A stretch of 37,380 nt of DNA from the UHGV virus genome UHGV-0349822; one strand, 5' to 3'. Shown here piece after piece: positions 186-20,978 of the stretch (within the stretch, counting starts at the first letter, position 1; every line of letters starts with the position of its first letter). The DNA comes from a virus. Under the pieces are notes generated by a model that saw nothing but the letters and a program-made list of their open reading frames with translations, was not told the DNA's origin and searched no databases. The position numbers and the translations under genes were made by a program.

Positions 186-717
186 TATCGCGTCCTCAAC
201 AATGAATTTTGTGATGCGGTGCCTGGTGCCTCCAGGTGACGTTAACCAGTTAACAATTAACGCCGGATACAGAGAATCCACCCATAACACTGTTTTTGGT
301 TTTAACTGTTCCGCGTGCGCTCAGCCGCATTCACCACATCACAAAATTCACTTTAAAAAGGGCGGCAGAGCAGTCACGGAGTAAAACTGATACCGCCAAA
401 CGTCACCAGAAAATTGATAACAGAGGGCGTTGCAGCGGGGTTGTCACTTAAGCGTATGGTCAACCTGACAACCCGGTGTCCTCAATGGGGGAAGGAATAA
501 CCCCGCCATACTTACCGCCGCGCCATTTCGCGGATTGCCACAACCGGAAGCGCACGGTCGACGAAAATTTAACGACAGGCTATCTATGAACCAGCTACCT
601 CGCTGTGCGCTTTCGCGTTATGGTCTGACTTTTCAGGGAAATATCCTTTCAGTAAACTGTCAGTGCCGGATGCTCACCCGTGTCCGGCGCACGCACTCCA
701 CCTCACCTGTGAATAAA

Positions 718-5490: not shown

Positions 5491-6396
5491 CTATATTTCC
5501 AGACACCTGTTATCACTTAACCCATTACTGGCCTGCTGCCGCAGATATTCCCGTGGCGAGCGATAACCCAGTGCACTATGCGGATGCCATTCGTTATAAT
5601 GCTCGAACGCCTCTGCAAGGTTCTTTGCTGCCGTTAACCCGTCTGGTTTAGGCATGATACTGATGTAGTCACGCTTTATCGTTTTCACGAAGCTCTCTGC
5701 TATGCCGTTACTCTCCGGACTCCGCACCGCCGTGTTCTTCGGTTCAAGCCCCAACATCCGGGCAAACTGCCGTGTTTCATTAGCCCGGTAGCATGAACCA
5801 TTATCCGTCAGCCACTCTACTGGAGACGCCGGAAGCTCGTTGCCGAAGCGGCGTTCCACCGCTCCCAGCATGACGTCCTGTACTGTTTCACTGTCGAAGC
5901 CGCCCGTAGTGACTGCCCAGTGCAGTGCCTCACGGTCACAGCAGTCCAGCGCGAACGTGACTCGCAGTTTTTCTCCGTTATCACAGCGGAACTCGAACCC
6001 GTCAGAGCACCATCGTTGATTGCTTTCTTTCACGGCCACTTTGCCAGTATGTGCCCGTTTCGATGGCGGTACAGCGGTTTTTCGCTCAAGCAACAGCGCA
6101 TTCTGTCGCATGATCCGGTAAACACGTTTGGCATTGATCGCAGGCATACCATCAAGTTCGGCCTGTCTGCGAAGCAGCGCCCATACCCGACGATAACCAT
6201 ACGTGGGCAGCTCTCCGATAACATGGTGTATACGGAGAAGCACATCCGTATCATCTGAGTGACGGCTGCGGCGACCATCTTTCCAGTCATCGGTTCGTCT
6301 GAGAATTACGTGCAACTGCGCACGCGACACCCGGAGACAACGGCTGACTAAGCTTACTCCCCATCCCCGGGCAATAAGGGCGCGTGCGCTATCCAC
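5491..6396 (-). CDS. insD: IS2 transposase OrfB (InsD), DDE domain
   Basis: 301-aa ORF in track; recognised as the IS2 OrfB sequence. Confidence 0.9.
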
Positions 6397-6719
6397 TTTT
6401 TTGCACGCCCGTATTCAACGGCTTCTTTAAGGAGTTCATTTTCCATCGTTTTTTTGCCGAGCAGGCGCTGGAGTTCTTTAATCTGCTTCATGGCAGCAGC
6501 AAGTTCAGAGGCAGGAACGACCTGCTCTCCTGCGGCCACAGCAGTAAGACTTCCCTCCTGGTATTGCTTGCGCCAGAGAAATAACTGGCTGGCTGCCACA
6601 CCGTGTTGCCGGGCAACAAGGGAGACCGTCATTCCCGGTTCAAAACTCTGCTGAACAATAGCGATCTTTTCCTGTGTAGTACGCCGTCTGCGTTTCTCCG
6701 GTCCTAAGACATCAATCAT
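6354..6719 (-). CDS. insC: IS2 OrfA (InsC), HTH DNA-binding transposase component
   Basis: Track ORF 6354-6764 trimmed to the [13 protein letters not shown]... start (121 aa); overlaps insD as in the IS2 OrfA/OrfB frameshift arrangement. Confidence 0.9.
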
Positions 6720-7214: not shown

Positions 7215-7473
7215 ATACAGCGAACGCCATTGGTTTAGTTGGATATTTACTGTGCCGGACAAAAACGGTTTGCGGGGAAATCTTAGTTAAGTAGAATGAC
7301 TGCGGGTGCTTGAGGCTATCTGTCTCAGGCATGAACACCAAAAGGCAGATAGAGAAAAGCCCCAGTTAACATTACGCGTCCTGCAAGACGCTTAACATTA
7401 ATCTGAGGCCATATCTATGCTCTACACACGTAGGTTAGCCTCTTACGTGCCGAAAGGCAAGGAGAAGCAGGCT

Positions 7474-7629
7474 ATGAAGCAGCAAAAGGCGATGCTAATC
7501 GCCCTGATCGTCATCTGTTTAACCGTCATAGTGACGGCACTGGTAACGAGGAAAGACCTCTGCGAGGTACGAATCCGAACCGGCCAGACGGAGGTCGCTG
7601 TCTTCACAGCTTACGAACCTGAGGAGTAA
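7474..7629 (+). CDS. hok: Hok/Gef-family membrane toxin (51 aa)
   Basis: MKQQKAMLIALIVICLTVIVTALVTRKDLCEVRIRTGQTEVAVFTAYEPEE shows the Hok signature (TM helix, conserved C...EVR...EVA.F.AYE); AAGGAGAAG Shine-Dalgarno; in-frame upstream ATG at 7417. Confidence 0.8.
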   Translation: MKQQKAMLIALIVICLTVIVTALVTRKDLCEVRIRTGQTEVAVFTAYEPEE

Positions 7630-11843: not shown

Positions 11844-11919
11844 GGCCCTTTAGCTCAGTGGTGAGAGCGAGCGACTCATAATCGCCAGGTCGCTGGTTCA
11901 AATCCAGCAAGGGCCACCA
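11844..11919 (+). tRNA. tRNA with CAU anticodon (likely Ile2/ileZ-like, AUA-decoding after lysidine modification; could be Met)
   Basis: 76 nt; acceptor stem GGCCCTT/AAGGGCC, anticodon loop CUCAUAA, T-arm GGTTCAAATCC, 3' CCA. Confidence 0.8.
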
Positions 11920-12019: not shown

Positions 12020-12096
12020 GCGTTGTTAGCTCAGCCGGACAGAGCAATTGCCTTCTAAGCAATCGGTTACTGGTTCGAATCCAGTACAGCGCGCCA
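12020..12096 (+). tRNA. tRNA-Arg (anticodon UCU, AGA-decoding)
   Basis: 77 nt; acceptor GCGTTGT/ACAGCGC, anticodon loop CUUCUAA, T-arm GGTTCGAATCC, 3' CCA. Confidence 0.8.
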
Positions 12097-12560: not shown

Positions 12561-12951
12561 ATACATATCTGGATTATCACCGGTTACGGTAAAAAGTGAT
12601 TGCTTACTGTTTTTGTGAATGGCATTGCAGCAGCCGGATAATGTCAGTGCTGGCTGACGGTGTGCTGGTGGCGGGTGTGGTGGTTGCTGCTTTCCCGTTG
12701 CTGAAAAAGAAAACGCCAGACTGTTAGCCGGGTATCAGTTAGCGGGAGAAATTTTTAAATACTTCACAATTCAGGCGGTTGACTGTTGTCTGGTTTGCGG
12801 GGAGTTTGTTAAAAGAAACTGGCATGGTGAATCCCCCTGTGCGGAGGGGCAATCAGCGAGTAGGTATATGGGATAATCGCGGATTCAGGTGCTGGTACTG
12901 AATTCACCGGGAGGCACCCGGCACCATGCAATGGCACATAGCGCCACTCTC

Positions 12952-12980
12952 CAGCCCCTCTCCGGAGGGGCTGTTTATAT
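12952..12980 (+). terminator. intrinsic terminator
   Basis: 9-bp stem CAGCCCCTC/GAGGGGCTG with TCCG loop, followed by TTTATATTGATTTT. Confidence 0.45.
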
Positions 12981-13007
12981 TGATTTTGTCAGATGTGAGT
13001 AAACTCC

Positions 13008-13343
13008 TTATGGACTTTGTTGTTTTAGCCCATAAGGACATATTTGCAGAGTGCAACGGTTATTAAAGCATTCATTCAATACGTTATCTGTATTTGTAGG
13101 GCATTCCTGGCTGTTTTTGATTAAATTCCAGAATGTTTTATTGAATGGTACTACGTTGTAAATGGTTACAGGCAGCACTTTGTTATTGAGCATGATGCCT
13201 GTGTGAGTCAGTGTAAATATACTTTCAGGAGGTAAGAAAGCATCCGATTGATACCAGATTATTAATTTTATTTTACTCCATATGACTGAAAAAGATATTC
13301 CGCATGATGGCTGGATAACTGTATCAATCACAATCCACTTCAT
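13008..13343 (-). CDS. hypothetical cargo protein (111 aa), antisense to late transcription
   Basis: ORF in track; AT-rich; convergent with ORF 12204-12560. Confidence 0.3.
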
Positions 13344-13588
13344 TTAGTTTCCTTGTTTATGCCTTGCTGGTGATGTTCTGAAAAGTATAAATGATATTTT
13401 TGATTGTAAACCATAGAGCAGAATTATTTTTCTGATGTTGTTTATTGTTTATTTAAATGCAGGGTGGTTTATATCTCGTCTTGTAGTTTATCCATGCATA
13501 TCTGCTTGATGATGAGGTTTTTAATTAAGGTATGGTTTTGTGTTTTTTCTGTATTACATGTCAGGTATTTTAAAGAATCATTTTTCAG

Positions 13589-17185: not shown

Positions 17186-17225
17186 TTTTAATTTCACTGA
17201 AATTTAATACGTGACTTTCAGGAAA

Positions 17226-17251
17226 ATGCCTCGCAGATGCGGGGCATTTTT
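17226..17251 (+). terminator. intrinsic terminator after the lysis cassette
   Basis: ATGCCTCGC-AGAT-GCGGGGCAT hairpin followed by TTTTT. Confidence 0.6.
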
Positions 17252-17601
17252 GTACAGGTATTTCACCGCGCACCGCAGCGCACTCAACCACGTCGAACCA
17301 AACCCTTTGGAATGAGCCTTTGAGTAGTCAGTTAGTGCTGGTGAGCCTTGACGGGCTGATCTCCTATGCAGCAAAGGTTCATCTCAAAGTAAGGCGAACG
17401 CTATGACAAACCAAGATTCTATAGACCTATCTGATCTTCGTGGAATGGTCAGTTTTCCAGACAAAAGGTAATCACCATAGTCGTATGGCTATGAATCTTG
17501 TTGCTGCAGATAAGCATTTTGTGATTGAAGTGGTCAAATCTCTCAAATGCAGTAAAATGCAGTGCGCTATAATTCAATAACGGAGGGAGTAAGGAGAAGT
17601 C

Positions 17602-18222
17602 ATGAAAGATCAAGATGTTAGGTTCGCGGTGCATCATAAGCTTTTGAAAGAATCGCATTTAGATCCAGACTGCCTTGTGGTCGATGAATTTTCCATATCC
17701 CTTGGCGCCAGTAGAGCAGACATTGCTGTAATAAATGGTGTTATACACGGGTACGAGCTCAAAAGTGAATATGACTCTTTGGAGCGTTTGCCTCTTCAAA
17801 TCAAGCATTATTCTTCTGTAATGGACAAGGTTACTCTTGTCGTAGCTGAGAAACATCTTGAGGGAGCATTAAAGTTAATCCCAGGTTGGTGGGGCGTTAA
17901 AACGGTTTCTGTTGGGCCAAAAGGCGCCATTCTTATAAAGCACATGCGTGGAGAAAAGCTTAATCGAAACCATGACACATTGATGCTCGCTCAATTGCTT
18001 TGGAAAGATGAATGTATCGACGTACTTGAACGATGGGGCTATTCCAAAGGAATCAAAAGCAAGCCCCGATTTGAGTTATGGAATATTATTGCGGAAAATA
18101 TTCCAATAGCGAATCTCAGGCTTGAAGTCAGAACAGCCTTAAAGAAACGCGTAGGCTGGAAAGTTAAGGCTTGGCAGGCTGAGTCTGCGCCAACCAATAA
18201 AGCTGTTTCACGACTAACGTAA
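17602..18222 (+). CDS. cargo protein A (206 aa) with PD-(D/E)xK-like motif (putative restriction-endonuclease-fold nuclease)
   Basis: AGGAGAAG Shine-Dalgarno; motif E29...D40-x11-E52-L-K54 (VVDEF...RADIAVINGVIHGYELK); AT-rich, with several ATA/AGA/AGG codons. Confidence 0.6.
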   Translation: MKDQDVRFAVHHKLLKESHLDPDCLVVDEFSISLGASRADIAVINGVIHGYELKSEYDSLERLPLQIKHYSSVMDKVTLVVAEKHLEGALKLIPGWWGVKTVSVGPKGAILIKHMRGEKLNRNHDTLMLAQLLWKDECIDVLERWGYSKGIKSKPRFELWNIIAENIPIANLRLEVRTALKKRVGWKVKAWQAESAPTNKAVSRLT

Positions 18223-19231
18223 TATGGTGCGTATGTGCAACTTTACGCCATTCTTTAGAGCCGCCAGATTTGTTAGCGCCTAATGATCTTTGGTAAATGT
18301 AATCATCCCCCCAACTAAATTTGGAACCAAAGACTTGATACTCTGGCGAACTAACAAGGGTAGTACATAAGTTTTTAGTTTGGCCCCATCCATTTCCTTT
18401 AACTGCGGTACCTTTTACAAAGATCCATGAGGTATCGTTCGAATATCTCACTGAGACATACTGAGACATGAAGCGTGGGTCTACGCTCGTAATGGTAGAG
18501 CTAGCGGTGGGATAATCACTAAAACTTGGCGTTCTTCCATTGCTAAAATTCTGTACTACGTGCATCCAAAGATCGTATTCATGGCGCGGAATATGATGAA
18601 CTTGATGTTGCGGTATCCCTGCCTGTGATGCTGGGTATGCGGTTGAAGATAAAATCAAGTTTCTCCACGGAGCTTGGCCTGATAATGTGTTGACCATGCT
18701 TAATGCTTGTTGTTTTAAACTATCAGTTGCGTTTTGAATATCTCCAAAATCAATGATTACATCAATTAAACTAGGATGAATATTTAAGTGGTTAACCAGA
18801 CTTGTGAATTGGTGCCATGTCTGGGGGGTGATAGATATAGCGAGCCCATTGATTAAGTTGCGTTGAACAGCATGTATATAGTTTGTTGAATATGCGGGAG
18901 AAACAACAGGGATAATTTCCTTACCATTTACTCTAGCATCTTGGATACACATATCTAGAGGATGATGGCGGCTCGAACCATGTTTATCTAAATATTTAAC
19001 ATCCAGCAAAACAGGACGATTGGCTTTCCAGGATGCCGCAAGGTTAATACCGAAGTCAGATAAGTAAGAACTCAAACTCTTCTTGTAGCATTCGTTTTCA
19101 TAATCCCAGTCTATGTCTGGAATGGTAATGATCGGAGTAAAACCAGAGAGCGTAGTTTGATCTAAAAGCATCAGAGATTCATATTCAGCAGGCTTCCATT
19201 TCAGCTGTGGATAATATTGATGTTGACTCAT
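18164..19231 (-). CDS. cargo protein B (355 aa), unknown function, convergent partner of protein A
   Basis: ORF in track with AAGGAG Shine-Dalgarno 7 nt upstream of ATG; AT-rich; 3' end overlaps protein A by 59 bp. Confidence 0.6.
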   Translation of the reverse strand: MSQHQYYPQLKWKPAEYESLMLLDQTTLSGFTPIITIPDIDWDYENECYKKSLSSYLSDFGINLAASWKANRPVLLDVKYLDKHGSSRHHPLDMCIQDARVNGKEIIPVVSPAYSTNYIHAVQRNLINGLAISITPQTWHQFTSLVNHLNIHPSLIDVIIDFGDIQNATDSLKQQALSMVNTLSGQAPWRNLILSSTAYPASQAGIPQHQVHHIPRHEYDLWMHVVQNFSNGRTPSFSDYPTASSTITSVDPRFMSQYVSVRYSNDTSWIFVKGTAVKGNGWGQTKNLCTTLVSSPEYQVFGSKFSWGDDYIYQRSLGANKSGGSKEWRKVAHTHHITLVVKQLYWLAQTQPAKP

Positions 19232-19454
19232 TAAAACTCCTTAAAATCTTTACTTATCCTAAGTATAGTGTTATGGCGTAACGCCAATTGTTTTTATACA
19301 CTTGAAAACATTAGGAAAAGTTGAGCTATATCTAAATTTACAAAATTGGATGTTATAGAAATCGAGGTTTCAACTAGGCATGGAACTGCAAAATTTTTAA
19401 TGCCTGCACGCGAAAGTCGTTGGCGGGTCCTTTCCGGTGATCCAGACCGTTACG

Positions 19455-19641: not shown

Positions 19642-20190
19642 ATGAAGGTTAATAAAAAGAGGCTTGCCGAAATTTTTAACGTGGACCCGCGGACGATTGA
19701 ACGCTGGCAGTCTCAGGGGCTCCCTTGCGTCTCCAAAGGCAGTAAGGGCATTGAATCTGTATTTGATACTGCCATGGCAATTCAGTGGTATGCGCAGAGG
19801 GAAACTGATATCGAAAACGAAAAGCTCCGCAAAGAACTGGCCGATTTGCGTGCGGCAGCGGAGTCAGATTTACAACCCGGCACCATTGACTATGAACGCT
19901 ACCGGCTCACAAAAGCGCAGGCAGATGCGCAGGAACTGAAAAATGCCCGTGAAGACGGAGTGGTGCTGGAAACTGAACTGTTTACCTTTATTCTGCAACG
20001 TGTGGCACAGGAGATTTCGGGGATACTTGTGCGTGTGCCGTTGACATTACAGCGTAAATATCCGGACATTTCACCATCACACCTTGATGTGGTGAAAACT
20101 GAAATCGCGAAAGCCTCCAATGTTGCAGCTAAGGCCGGTGAAAACGTGGGCGGGTGGATCGATGATTTCAGACGCACAGAAGGCAGCTAA
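19642..20190 (+). CDS. nu1: terminase small subunit (lambda Nu1-like)
   Basis: [28 protein letters not shown]...[28 protein letters not shown]... closely parallels lambda gpNu1. Confidence 0.85.
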
Positions 20191-20978
20191 TGCAGCCGGT
20201 GCGATAGCTACAGGGCTTTTATCTCTCATTATTCCTGTTCCACTGACGACAGTTCAGTGGGCCAATAAACATTATTACCTTCCTAAAGAGTCGTCTTATA
20301 CCCCGGGGCGGTGGGAAACACTGCCGTTTCAGGTTGGCATCATGAACTGTATGGGCAACGATTTGATTCGCACTGTTAACCTGATTAAATCTGCCCGTGT
20401 TGGTTATACAAAGATGTTGCTGGGAGTGGAGGCTTATTTTATTGAGCGGGGGGATCGATGGCGAAATTGTCTATCAGAGGTCAAAAAAACACGGTGTTTT
20501 CCGGGTGCTGCCGGTAAAAGGTGCATCTGTTTATGGCAAGCCGGTGATCACCATGCCAAAAACCCGCAATCAGCGGGGCGTGTATCTGTGCGAAGTGGGG
20601 ACGGACACCGCAAAAGAAATTCTCTATGCCCGTATGAAAGCCGATCCCACGCCTGCGGATGAAGCCACGTCGTATGCCATCCGTTTTCCTGATGATCCGG
20701 AGATTTTTTCGCAGACAGAGGCGCAGCAACTGGTGGCGGAAGAGCTTGTGGAGAAGTGGGAAAAAGGAAAGATGCGTCTGCTGTGGGATAACAAAAAGCG
20801 GCGTAACGAAGCGCTGGACTGCCTGGTGTATGCCTACGCGGCATTACGTGTGTCCGTGCAACGCTGGCAGCTTGATCTGGCTGTACTGGCAAAATCCCGG
20901 GAAGAAGAGACGACCCGGCCAACCCTTAAAGAACTGGCAGCGAAGCTGTCCGGAGGAGTGAATGGTTACAGTCGCTGA
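20162..20978 (+). pseudogene. A: terminase large subunit (lambda gpA-like) with about 1.1 kb internal out-of-frame deletion
   Basis: N-terminal ~95 aa (to ...LGVEAYFIE, 20162-20446) and C-terminal ~175 aa (GGIDGEIVYQRSKKHG... to 20978) both match lambda gpA but lie in different frames. Nu1-to-W distance is ~0.77 kb versus ~1.9 kb in lambda. Confidence 0.8.

What the first reader, a model, noticed from the sequence alone, without database searches (positions are those of the whole stretch)
17252..19454. AT-rich convergent two-gene cassette between the lysis genes and cos: candidate undescribed accessory or anti-phage system
The Rz-to-cos interval, which carries bor and other morons in lambda, here holds two genes with their own strong Shine-Dalgarno sequences, a visibly lower GC content than the flanking phage genes, and convergent orientation with a 59-bp 3' overlap (18164-18222). 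Protein A (206 aa) has a PD-(D/E)xK-type arrangement (E29, D40, E52-L-K54), suggesting a restriction-endonuclease-fold nuclease. Protein B (355 aa) has no motif I can assign. A direct repeat AATGCAGT(A)AAATGCAGTG sits just upstream of a TATAAT-like hexamer before gene A, suggesting autonomous regulation. I cannot place either protein in a named defence family from the sequence alone.
Basis: partly seen in the sequence, partly recalled or inferred. Interest (0 to 1): 0.85.

Follow-up and report, generated by a model that had tools for sequence, protein, structure and literature searches.

The report
Gop-less P4 beta/cII-type prophage cassette
The two genes between the lysis genes and cos are distant relatives of the beta and cII genes of satellite phage P4, carried here as a stand-alone, tail-to-tail overlapping pair (a predicted nuclease plus a TIM-barrel protein); this pair appears to be the shared core of two published anti-phage systems, but has not itself been tested.

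Summary
Gene A (17602-18222, +, 206 aa) and gene B (18164-19231, -, 355 aa) converge with a 59-bp overlap. Both have AAGGAG ribosome sites, and the module is 40.5% GC against 51.9% for the window. The cassette is not unplaceable. A is an sce7726 / Phage_P4_cII protein and B is a Pfam Beta_protein. Both match PADLOC models of the P4 gop-beta-cII system, and B also matches PD-lambda-2_C. B models as a divergent TIM barrel. There is no gop, HigB or Xre-peptidase partner here. The same pair occurs across many phyla. It was convergent in 77 of 80 genome loci, and every overlapping case shares one relative reading frame. In P4 it follows gop. In PD-lambda-2-like loci it follows HigB plus an Xre-M78 peptidase. 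In E. coli it is variable cargo at the Rz-cos position, present in 126 of 5426 complete genomes. The most likely role is a prophage-borne defence or abortive-infection module, with A as the effector. That role is inferred, not shown. I rate it a new variant of a known kind, of moderate interest.

The parts
17510..17601 (+). Conserved leader of gene A. It holds a promoter-like site TGGTCA-16-TAAAAT (17531-17558), the direct repeat AAATGCAGT at 17545-17553 and 17555-17563, TATAAT at 17568-17573 and the Shine-Dalgarno AAGGAG at 17591-17596.
   Evidence: Sequence, repeat finder and promoter scan. DNA similarity to four other genera begins at 17510-17545, and the repeat and -10 element are conserved there. 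Promoter or operator function is inferred.
17602..18222 (+). Gene A, 206 aa: an sce7726 / Phage_P4_cII family protein and predicted PD-(D/E)xK nuclease. It has E29, D40, E52-x-K54 and Q66-x3-Y70, a helical C-terminal half and a disordered tail at 189-206.
18164..18222 (.). The 59-bp stretch where the 3' ends of A and B overlap and both strands code.
   Evidence: The overlap is 2 mod 3, the same relative frame as in all 75 overlapping genome loci and 62 further distinct pairs. No terminator-like hairpin follows either stop codon.
18164..19231 (-). Gene B, 355 aa: a Beta_protein family member with a predicted divergent TIM barrel. E16, D77, R216, D239 and H336 are invariant even when P4 beta is included.
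19232..19335 (-). Leader of gene B. It holds the Shine-Dalgarno AAGGAG (19237-19242), the palindrome GGCGTAACGCC (19275-19285) and a conserved upstream block of the form TTAGATnTAGCTCAA ... TTTTCA ... TATAAA.
   Evidence: Sequence and alignment with four other genera. Promoter function is inferred.
17252..17509 (.). Spacer between Rz and the cassette. It is not part of the conserved module. Positions 17252-17406 are a remnant resembling a phage anti-repressor gene.
   Evidence: 82% identity to an 'anti-repressor' gene of phage IdasGreatGrand. It lies outside the similarity to other genera.

Best explanation
The cassette is a self-contained, horizontally mobile two-gene module of the P4 beta/cII type. 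It is carried as a moron in the variable Rz-cos slot of a Rac-immunity lambdoid prophage of E. coli. Gene A encodes a PD-(D/E)xK nuclease with an intact, invariant active site. Gene B encodes a stand-alone TIM-barrel protein whose invariant acidic, basic and histidine residues lie at or near predicted strand ends, which suggests an enzyme. I propose that the pair is a prophage-encoded anti-phage or abortive-infection module. A would be the effector nuclease. Beta would be the partner that restrains A or senses infection. Their ratio would be set by obligatory convergent transcription, because the two mRNAs are complementary at their 3' ends. What is shown: the family assignments, the predicted folds, the conserved architecture, the mobility, and the absence of gop, HigB or Xre partners. 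What is inferred: the defence role, which protein is the effector, and the antisense coupling.
For: Both proteins hit families and PADLOC models of validated systems. P4 gop-beta-cII protects against lambda and P1 (PMC9122126). [quoted passage not shown] A phage gene triggers gop-beta-cII toxicity (10.1101/2023.04.06.535777). The nuclease fold and its invariant D40, E52 and K54 are supported. The pair was convergent in 77 of 80 genome loci across many phyla, and 18 of 21 plasmids found from the beta side also carry the partner. No third gene is conserved among 113 flanking ORFs. The cassette is variable cargo: it is in 126 of 5426 E. coli genomes, other genes occupy the slot elsewhere, and the identical cassette sits between divergent Rz and Nu1 alleles. 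Relatives lie in P4-like satellites, directly downstream of a CI-type repressor in Acinetobacter prophages, and beside R-M, KAP-NTPase and RT genes. The module carries its own conserved leaders.
Against: No experiment addresses the two-gene form. In both validated relatives the demonstrated toxic component is another protein, Gop in one and the Xre-peptidase in the other, and both are absent here. The cloned PD-lambda-2 fragment extends only 396 bp beyond the beta-like gene. If that gene lies on the minus strand, as the order of its protein accessions suggests, the fragment cannot hold an intact cII-like gene, so beta can contribute to defence without it. P4 cII was named for a phage plaque phenotype (from memory), which hints at a role in the element's own biology. 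The fold of beta does not identify a substrate. The host prophage has a truncated terL, so retention of the cassette could partly reflect hitch-hiking.
Confidence: 0.6

Rival explanations
1. The pair is an addiction or stabilisation module. A toxic nuclease and its neutralising partner keep the prophage or satellite in the lineage, with no role against incoming phages.
For: Rousset et al. read P4 gop and beta as a likely toxin-antitoxin pair. The pair rides on many mobile elements and plasmids. The tight interlocking prevents the two genes from being separated.
Against: Both experimentally studied relatives protect against phage. Canonical type II pairs are co-directional operons with a small labile antitoxin, whereas here the partner is a 355-aa TIM barrel with enzyme-like conservation. 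Stabilisation and defence do not exclude each other.
Confidence: 0.15
2. The pair is a restriction-modification-like system. Beta, a TIM-barrel enzyme, would modify DNA or a nucleotide pool, and A would cut DNA of the wrong modification state.
Against: The TGT and DpdA matches score no better than dozens of unrelated TIM barrels, and Foldseek ranks TrpA and TIM first. No methyltransferase or known modification domain was found. Profile searches of PDB sequences found nothing.
Confidence: 0.1
3. The genes serve the carrier element's own life cycle, for example lysogeny control or DNA processing, rather than conflict with other phages.
For: P4 cII was named from a clear-plaque mutant (from memory; the primary paper, PMC249035, was not readable). 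In the lambdoid host, gene A lies sense to the late transcription unit.
Against: The cassette is absent from most related prophages and other cargo replaces it. It occupies unrelated positions in unrelated phages, satellites, plasmids and chromosomes. Rousset et al. describe the P4 copy as non-essential.
Confidence: 0.1

Closest known systems
P4 gop-beta-cII (satellite phage P4 hotspot system; PADLOC models gop, beta, cll)
   Same: Both the beta and cII homologues are present. Beta is 22% identical, with the same 355-aa length, and cII is 27% identical. The two genes converge in both. Both cassettes lie next to cos on a mobile element. The P4 system protects against lambda and P1.
   Different: There is no gop: no minus-strand ORF of 40 aa or more lies upstream of B, and tblastn finds nothing. 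A lacks the C-terminal 60 or so residues of P4 cII. The genes overlap by 59 bp, whereas P4 has a 27-bp gap with an annotated terminator. B scores far better against PD-Lambda-2_C than against the P4 beta model.
PD-lambda-2 (Vassallo et al. 2022; HigB-like A, Xre-peptidase B, beta-like C)
   Same: B matches PD-Lambda-2_C at 2.7e-32. [quoted passage not shown] Relatives of that architecture carry the same convergent, overlapping cII-like gene. I saw this in 10 of 80 genome loci and in all three independently sampled loci.
   Different: The window has neither the HigB-like nor the Xre-M78 peptidase gene. The published system is described as three genes with no cII-like partner, and its clone leaves only 396 bp beyond the beta-like gene. 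HigB plus Xre-M78 also occurs alone on plasmids.
MmcB-like / SPO1766 and other PD-(D/E)xK nucleases (3dnx, Can2, NucS, type II restriction enzymes)
   Same: The predicted core fold and the order of catalytic residues match: D on strand 2, ExK on strand 3 and a Q-x3-Y helix.
   Different: Sequence identity is 5-18% and no sequence-level match to any PDB chain was found. A has an extra helical C-terminal half and an obligate beta partner.
Lambda-type morons and exclusion genes (bor in the Rz-cos interval, rexAB beside cI)
   Same: The cassette has lower GC and its own expression signals. Acinetobacter relatives sit directly downstream of the repressor gene, as rexAB does. The comparison with bor and rexAB rests on established knowledge of lambda.
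   Different: The proteins are unrelated. This is a likeness of position and lifestyle only.

Membership tests
P4 gop-beta-cII defence system | Beta homologue (Pfam Beta_protein / PADLOC beta) | tested here: met
   Pfam 1.8e-55, PADLOC beta 2.3e-10, BLASTP against P4 beta E 3e-7 over the full length.
P4 gop-beta-cII defence system | cII homologue (PADLOC cll / sce7726 / Phage_P4_cII) | tested here: met
   PADLOC cll 4.3e-31, NCBIfam 2.3e-54, BLASTP against P4 cII 1e-18. The family carries PF26915 in the precomputed annotation.
P4 gop-beta-cII defence system | gop gene directly upstream of beta | tested here: not met
   No minus-strand ORF of 40 aa or more lies between 19232 and nu1. tblastn of P4 Gop against the whole window gives nothing better than E 0.48.
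P4 gop-beta-cII defence system | Protection against phage infection | not testable with these tools
   This needs cloning and plaque assays.
PD-lambda-2 | HigB-like toxin gene (component A) | tested here: not met
   No ORF lies upstream of B. In true PD-lambda-2-like loci the HigB gene is obvious (PADLOC 1e-37, Pfam HigB_toxin).
PD-lambda-2 | Xre-HTH / M78 peptidase fusion (component B) | tested here: not met
   No ORF of about 400 aa lies upstream of B. Compare L060 at 7.4e-140.
PD-lambda-2 | Beta-like component C | tested here: met
   PADLOC PD-Lambda-2_C 2.7e-32 and 2.2e-25.
PD-(D/E)xK nuclease superfamily (protein A) | Restriction-endonuclease-like alpha-beta-beta-beta-alpha-beta core | tested here: met
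PD-(D/E)xK nuclease superfamily (protein A) | Conserved D ... (D/E)xK catalytic residues | tested here: met
   E29, D40, E52 and K54 are invariant in 47 homologues that share 39-85% identity with protein A. Q66 is invariant and Y70 nearly so.
PD-(D/E)xK nuclease superfamily (protein A) | Metal-dependent nuclease activity | not testable with these tools
   This needs a biochemical assay.
TIM-barrel fold (protein B) | Eight-fold beta/alpha barrel | tested here: met
Canonical type II toxin-antitoxin pair | Co-directional two-gene operon with a small antitoxin | tested here: not met
   The genes are convergent, each with its own leader, and the partner is 355 aa.
Restriction-modification system | A DNA methyltransferase or other recognised modification enzyme | tested here: not met
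   No such domain appears in A or B with Pfam, NCBIfam or PADLOC.

The most novel reading that the evidence does not exclude
The beta/cII pair is an autonomous two-gene immune module and the true conserved core of both gop-beta-cII and PD-lambda-2. In this reading gop and HigB/Xre-peptidase are interchangeable add-ons. A TIM-barrel enzyme would control a PD-(D/E)xK nuclease through a small molecule or a nucleic-acid modification. The interlocked, frame-fixed 3' overlap would act as a built-in antisense switch that sets the ratio of the two proteins.
Probability: 0.3. Interest if true: 0.75.

Novelty: new variant of a known kind. Interest (0 to 1): 0.5.

Why it matters
Two published anti-phage systems, P4 gop-beta-cII and PD-lambda-2, have so far been read as toxin-antitoxin-like operons with an unexplained beta 'accessory' gene. 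The comparison here shows that beta is almost always locked tail-to-tail to a cII-type nuclease gene. It also shows that this pair stands alone in many phages, satellites, plasmids and chromosomes across phyla. The beta family has about 3,750 cluster representatives at 50% identity. If the pair alone protects, it would define a widespread minimal system. Defence-system scanners that require gop (as I recall their rules) would miss it. It would also change the reading of the two published systems, and it would offer a clean model for regulation by obligatory convergent overlap. If the pair does not protect, the cassette is simply an annotated prophage moron of unknown role.

Tried and rejected
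- **PDB sequence searches.** Single-sequence and profile searches found no relative for either protein.
- **Foldseek on beta.** It gave only weak, generic TIM-barrel matches, so I make no claim about substrate.
- **NCBIfam on beta.** Six beta homologues were scanned, including one from Sorangium, and none hit any NCBIfam model. My recollection that beta might be the 'sce7725' partner of sce7726 therefore found no support, and I dropped it.
- **gop.** tblastn of P4 Gop against the window found nothing.
- **Known RNAs and terminators.** Rfam shows no known RNA in the cassette. Neither the terminator scan nor folding found a credible terminator after either stop codon.
- **Scan seeded from beta.** The IMG/VR scan seeded from beta recovered only close relatives, so it could not test whether beta occurs without cII. 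The plasmid tblastn was used for that instead.
- **E. coli PD-lambda-2 locus.** The profile search with the Xre-M78 peptidase returned only environmental sequences in its top 120, so I could not inspect that locus directly.
- **Domain fusions.** The 150 best beta representatives are all single-domain, with complete ones around 340-420 aa, so fusions give no functional clue.
- **Primary P4 paper.** PMC249035 is not held in the library.
- **Literature.** Searches for sce7726, PF14350, gop_beta_cll and Beta_protein found no functional study of the two-gene form.
- **Upstream small ORF.** The 46-aa ORF at 17440-17580 is not conserved in the nearest relatives, so I did not treat it as a gene.

Full report
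**1.

The ORF list gives gene A at 17602-18222 (+, 206 aa) and gene B at 18164-19231 (-, 355 aa). They converge and share 59 bp. Each has AAGGAG five nt before its ATG.

The module is 40.5% GC. The lysis genes are 50.7%, nu1 to portal is 53.9% and the window as a whole is 51.9%. The repeat AAATGCAGT occurs twice, 10 nt apart, just before a TATAAT. The window carries a lambdoid prophage. It is 99.98% identical to a Rac-immunity prophage of E. coli ST648, with Rz upstream of the cassette and cos/nu1 downstream.

**2. Identity of the two proteins**

- **Protein A.** It matches NCBIfam sce7726_fam (2.3e-54), PADLOC 'cll' (4.3e-31) and phrog_984. The precomputed Pfam label for the family is PF26915, Phage_P4_cII.
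- **Protein B.** It matches Pfam Beta_protein (1.8e-55), PADLOC PD-Lambda-2_C (2.7e-32), PADLOC 'beta' (2.3e-10) and phrog_9159.
- **Comparison with P4.** A is 27% identical to P4 cII (E 1e-18). B is 22% identical to P4 beta over the full length, and both beta proteins are 355 aa.
- **Existing annotation.** RefSeq already labels the two genes 'sce7726 family protein' and 'beta family protein'.

**3. Predicted folds**

**4. What is missing**

P4 has gop directly upstream of beta. The window has no minus-strand ORF of 40 aa or more upstream of B, and no Gop-like sequence anywhere. It also lacks the HigB-like and Xre-peptidase genes of PD-lambda-2.

**5. The pair is a conserved, interlocked unit**

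A scan of species-representative genomes with the A profile found relatives in 389 stretches. They span Proteobacteria, Firmicutes, Myxococcota, Acidobacteriota, Bacteroidota, candidate-phyla-radiation bacteria and others.

- In 77 of the 80 loci kept, a beta homologue lies immediately downstream on the opposite strand. Of the other three, two end at or near a contig edge, and one (L011) is a solo gene with no beta remnant.
- In 75 of the 77 the 3' ends overlap, by 11-158 bp with a median of 56. All 75 overlaps equal 2 mod 3.
- A further 62 distinct overlapping pairs from other fetched loci share that frame.
- The cause is a very tight junction. The codons of A-R183 and B-H336 are exactly 39 nt apart in 69 of 79 loci, which I calculate places the conserved cores within about 1 nt of each other. 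The window's clade has 78 nt.
- These loci share ancestry, so they are not independent trials. The point is that the junction has been kept across deep divergence.
- Seeding from beta gives the same picture: 18 of 21 plasmid hits have an sce7726 gene annotated under the beta match.
- Phages Rac-SA53, DumpsterDude, Powerball and Mycofy1 show the same layout.
- P4 is the exception, with a 27-bp gap and an annotated terminator.

**6. Three architectures around one core**

No neighbouring gene is conserved. Among 113 flanking ORFs from 36 loci, the commonest family appears four times.

- **Core only.** The window and most loci carry just the two genes.
- **HigB plus Xre-M78 plus core.** In 10 of 80 loci, beta is preceded by a HigB toxin gene and an Xre-M78 peptidase gene. 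These match PD-Lambda-2_A (1e-37) and PD-Lambda-2_B (7e-140). Three loci sampled from the peptidase side also carry beta and an overlapping Phage_P4_cII gene. They lie beside a type I R-M gene, a DNA methyltransferase or a KAP NTPase.
- **gop plus core.** This is P4.

HigB plus Xre-M78 also occurs alone on plasmids.

The published PD-lambda-2 clone ends 396 bp beyond the system, on the side where I place the beta-like gene from the order of its protein accessions. That is too short for an intact cII-like gene. If one exists in ECOR42, it was truncated in the clone. This is an inference from coordinates only.

**7. The cassette is mobile cargo**

It is 100% identical in 126 of 5426 complete E. 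coli genomes. Elsewhere the Rz-nu1 slot holds DUF1398 plus YlcI, DUF6979, PerC, KilA-N or Rha genes. In IMG/VR contigs the identical cassette follows Rz alleles of 79-100% identity and precedes Nu1 alleles of 38-99% identity.

DNA similarity to the Edwardsiella, Klebsiella, Pantoea and Pectobacterium copies runs from about 17510 to 19244, and a conserved block extends to about 19335. Both leaders therefore travel with the genes. Relatives sit in P4-like primase-bearing elements and directly downstream of a CI-type repressor in Acinetobacter prophages.

**8. Likely mechanism**

P4 gop-beta-cII protects against lambda and P1 (PMC9122126). PD-lambda-2C is needed for defence against lambda-vir (PMC9519451). 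A coliphage gene triggers gop-beta-cII toxicity (10.1101/2023.04.06.535777).

By homology and context, I think the pair is a defence or abortive-infection module. A would be the effector and beta its controller or sensor. No terminator follows either stop codon, so the two mRNAs must be complementary at their 3' ends. That would allow mutual antisense control.

In the lambdoid host the cassette lies inside the late transcription unit, with A in the sense direction and B antisense. This follows from lambda biology, not from any test here. All of the mechanism is inference. In both studied relatives the known toxic protein is one that this cassette lacks.

**9. Verdict**

- The cassette is a new variant of a known kind: the partner-less core of the beta/cII systems.
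- The beta family is large, with about 3,750 representatives at 50% identity, and the 150 best hits are all single-domain.
- Interest is moderate, at 0.5.

Noticed in passing
window 20447 (terL, about 20161-20978): Compared with the otherwise 99.98% identical ST648 prophage, 1,111 bp are missing from inside the large terminase gene. The deletion leaves a frameshifted remnant, so this prophage copy is probably unable to package DNA.
   Followed up: partly
L060, L225-L229 and nine other genome loci: Loci of the PD-lambda-2 type (HigB, Xre-M78 peptidase, beta) carry a fourth, convergent and overlapping cII-type nuclease gene. The published three-gene description does not include it.
   Followed up: partly
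window 17223-17250: A near-perfect hairpin, AAAATGCCTCGCA/TGCGGGGCATTTT, followed by a run of T, lies just after Rz. It looks like a terminator at the end of the lysis genes.
   Followed up: no
window 17252-17406: This stretch is 82% identical to part of an 'anti-repressor' gene of Escherichia phage IdasGreatGrand. It is a gene remnant between Rz and the cassette, perhaps left by earlier cargo.
   Followed up: no
window 360-411 (-), 7304-7479 (+), 12793-12982 (+): Rfam finds DicF, the sok antitoxin RNA and STnc100. By the ST648 annotation, hokD lies just after sok.
   Followed up: no
window 11844-11919 and 12020-12096: Two phage-borne tRNA genes lie downstream of a DNA methyltransferase gene. 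One has a CAU anticodon (RefSeq calls it Ile, ARAGORN calls it Met) and the other is Arg(UCU).
   Followed up: no
window about 5491-6719 and 13001-13500: An IS3-family element is inserted in the early region. A second AT-rich block (33.6% GC) holds iraM on the minus strand.
   Followed up: no
L011 (Xenorhabdus koppenhoeferi): This locus has a cII-type gene with 2.8 kb of downstream sequence and no trace of beta. It is a rare solo copy.
   Followed up: partly
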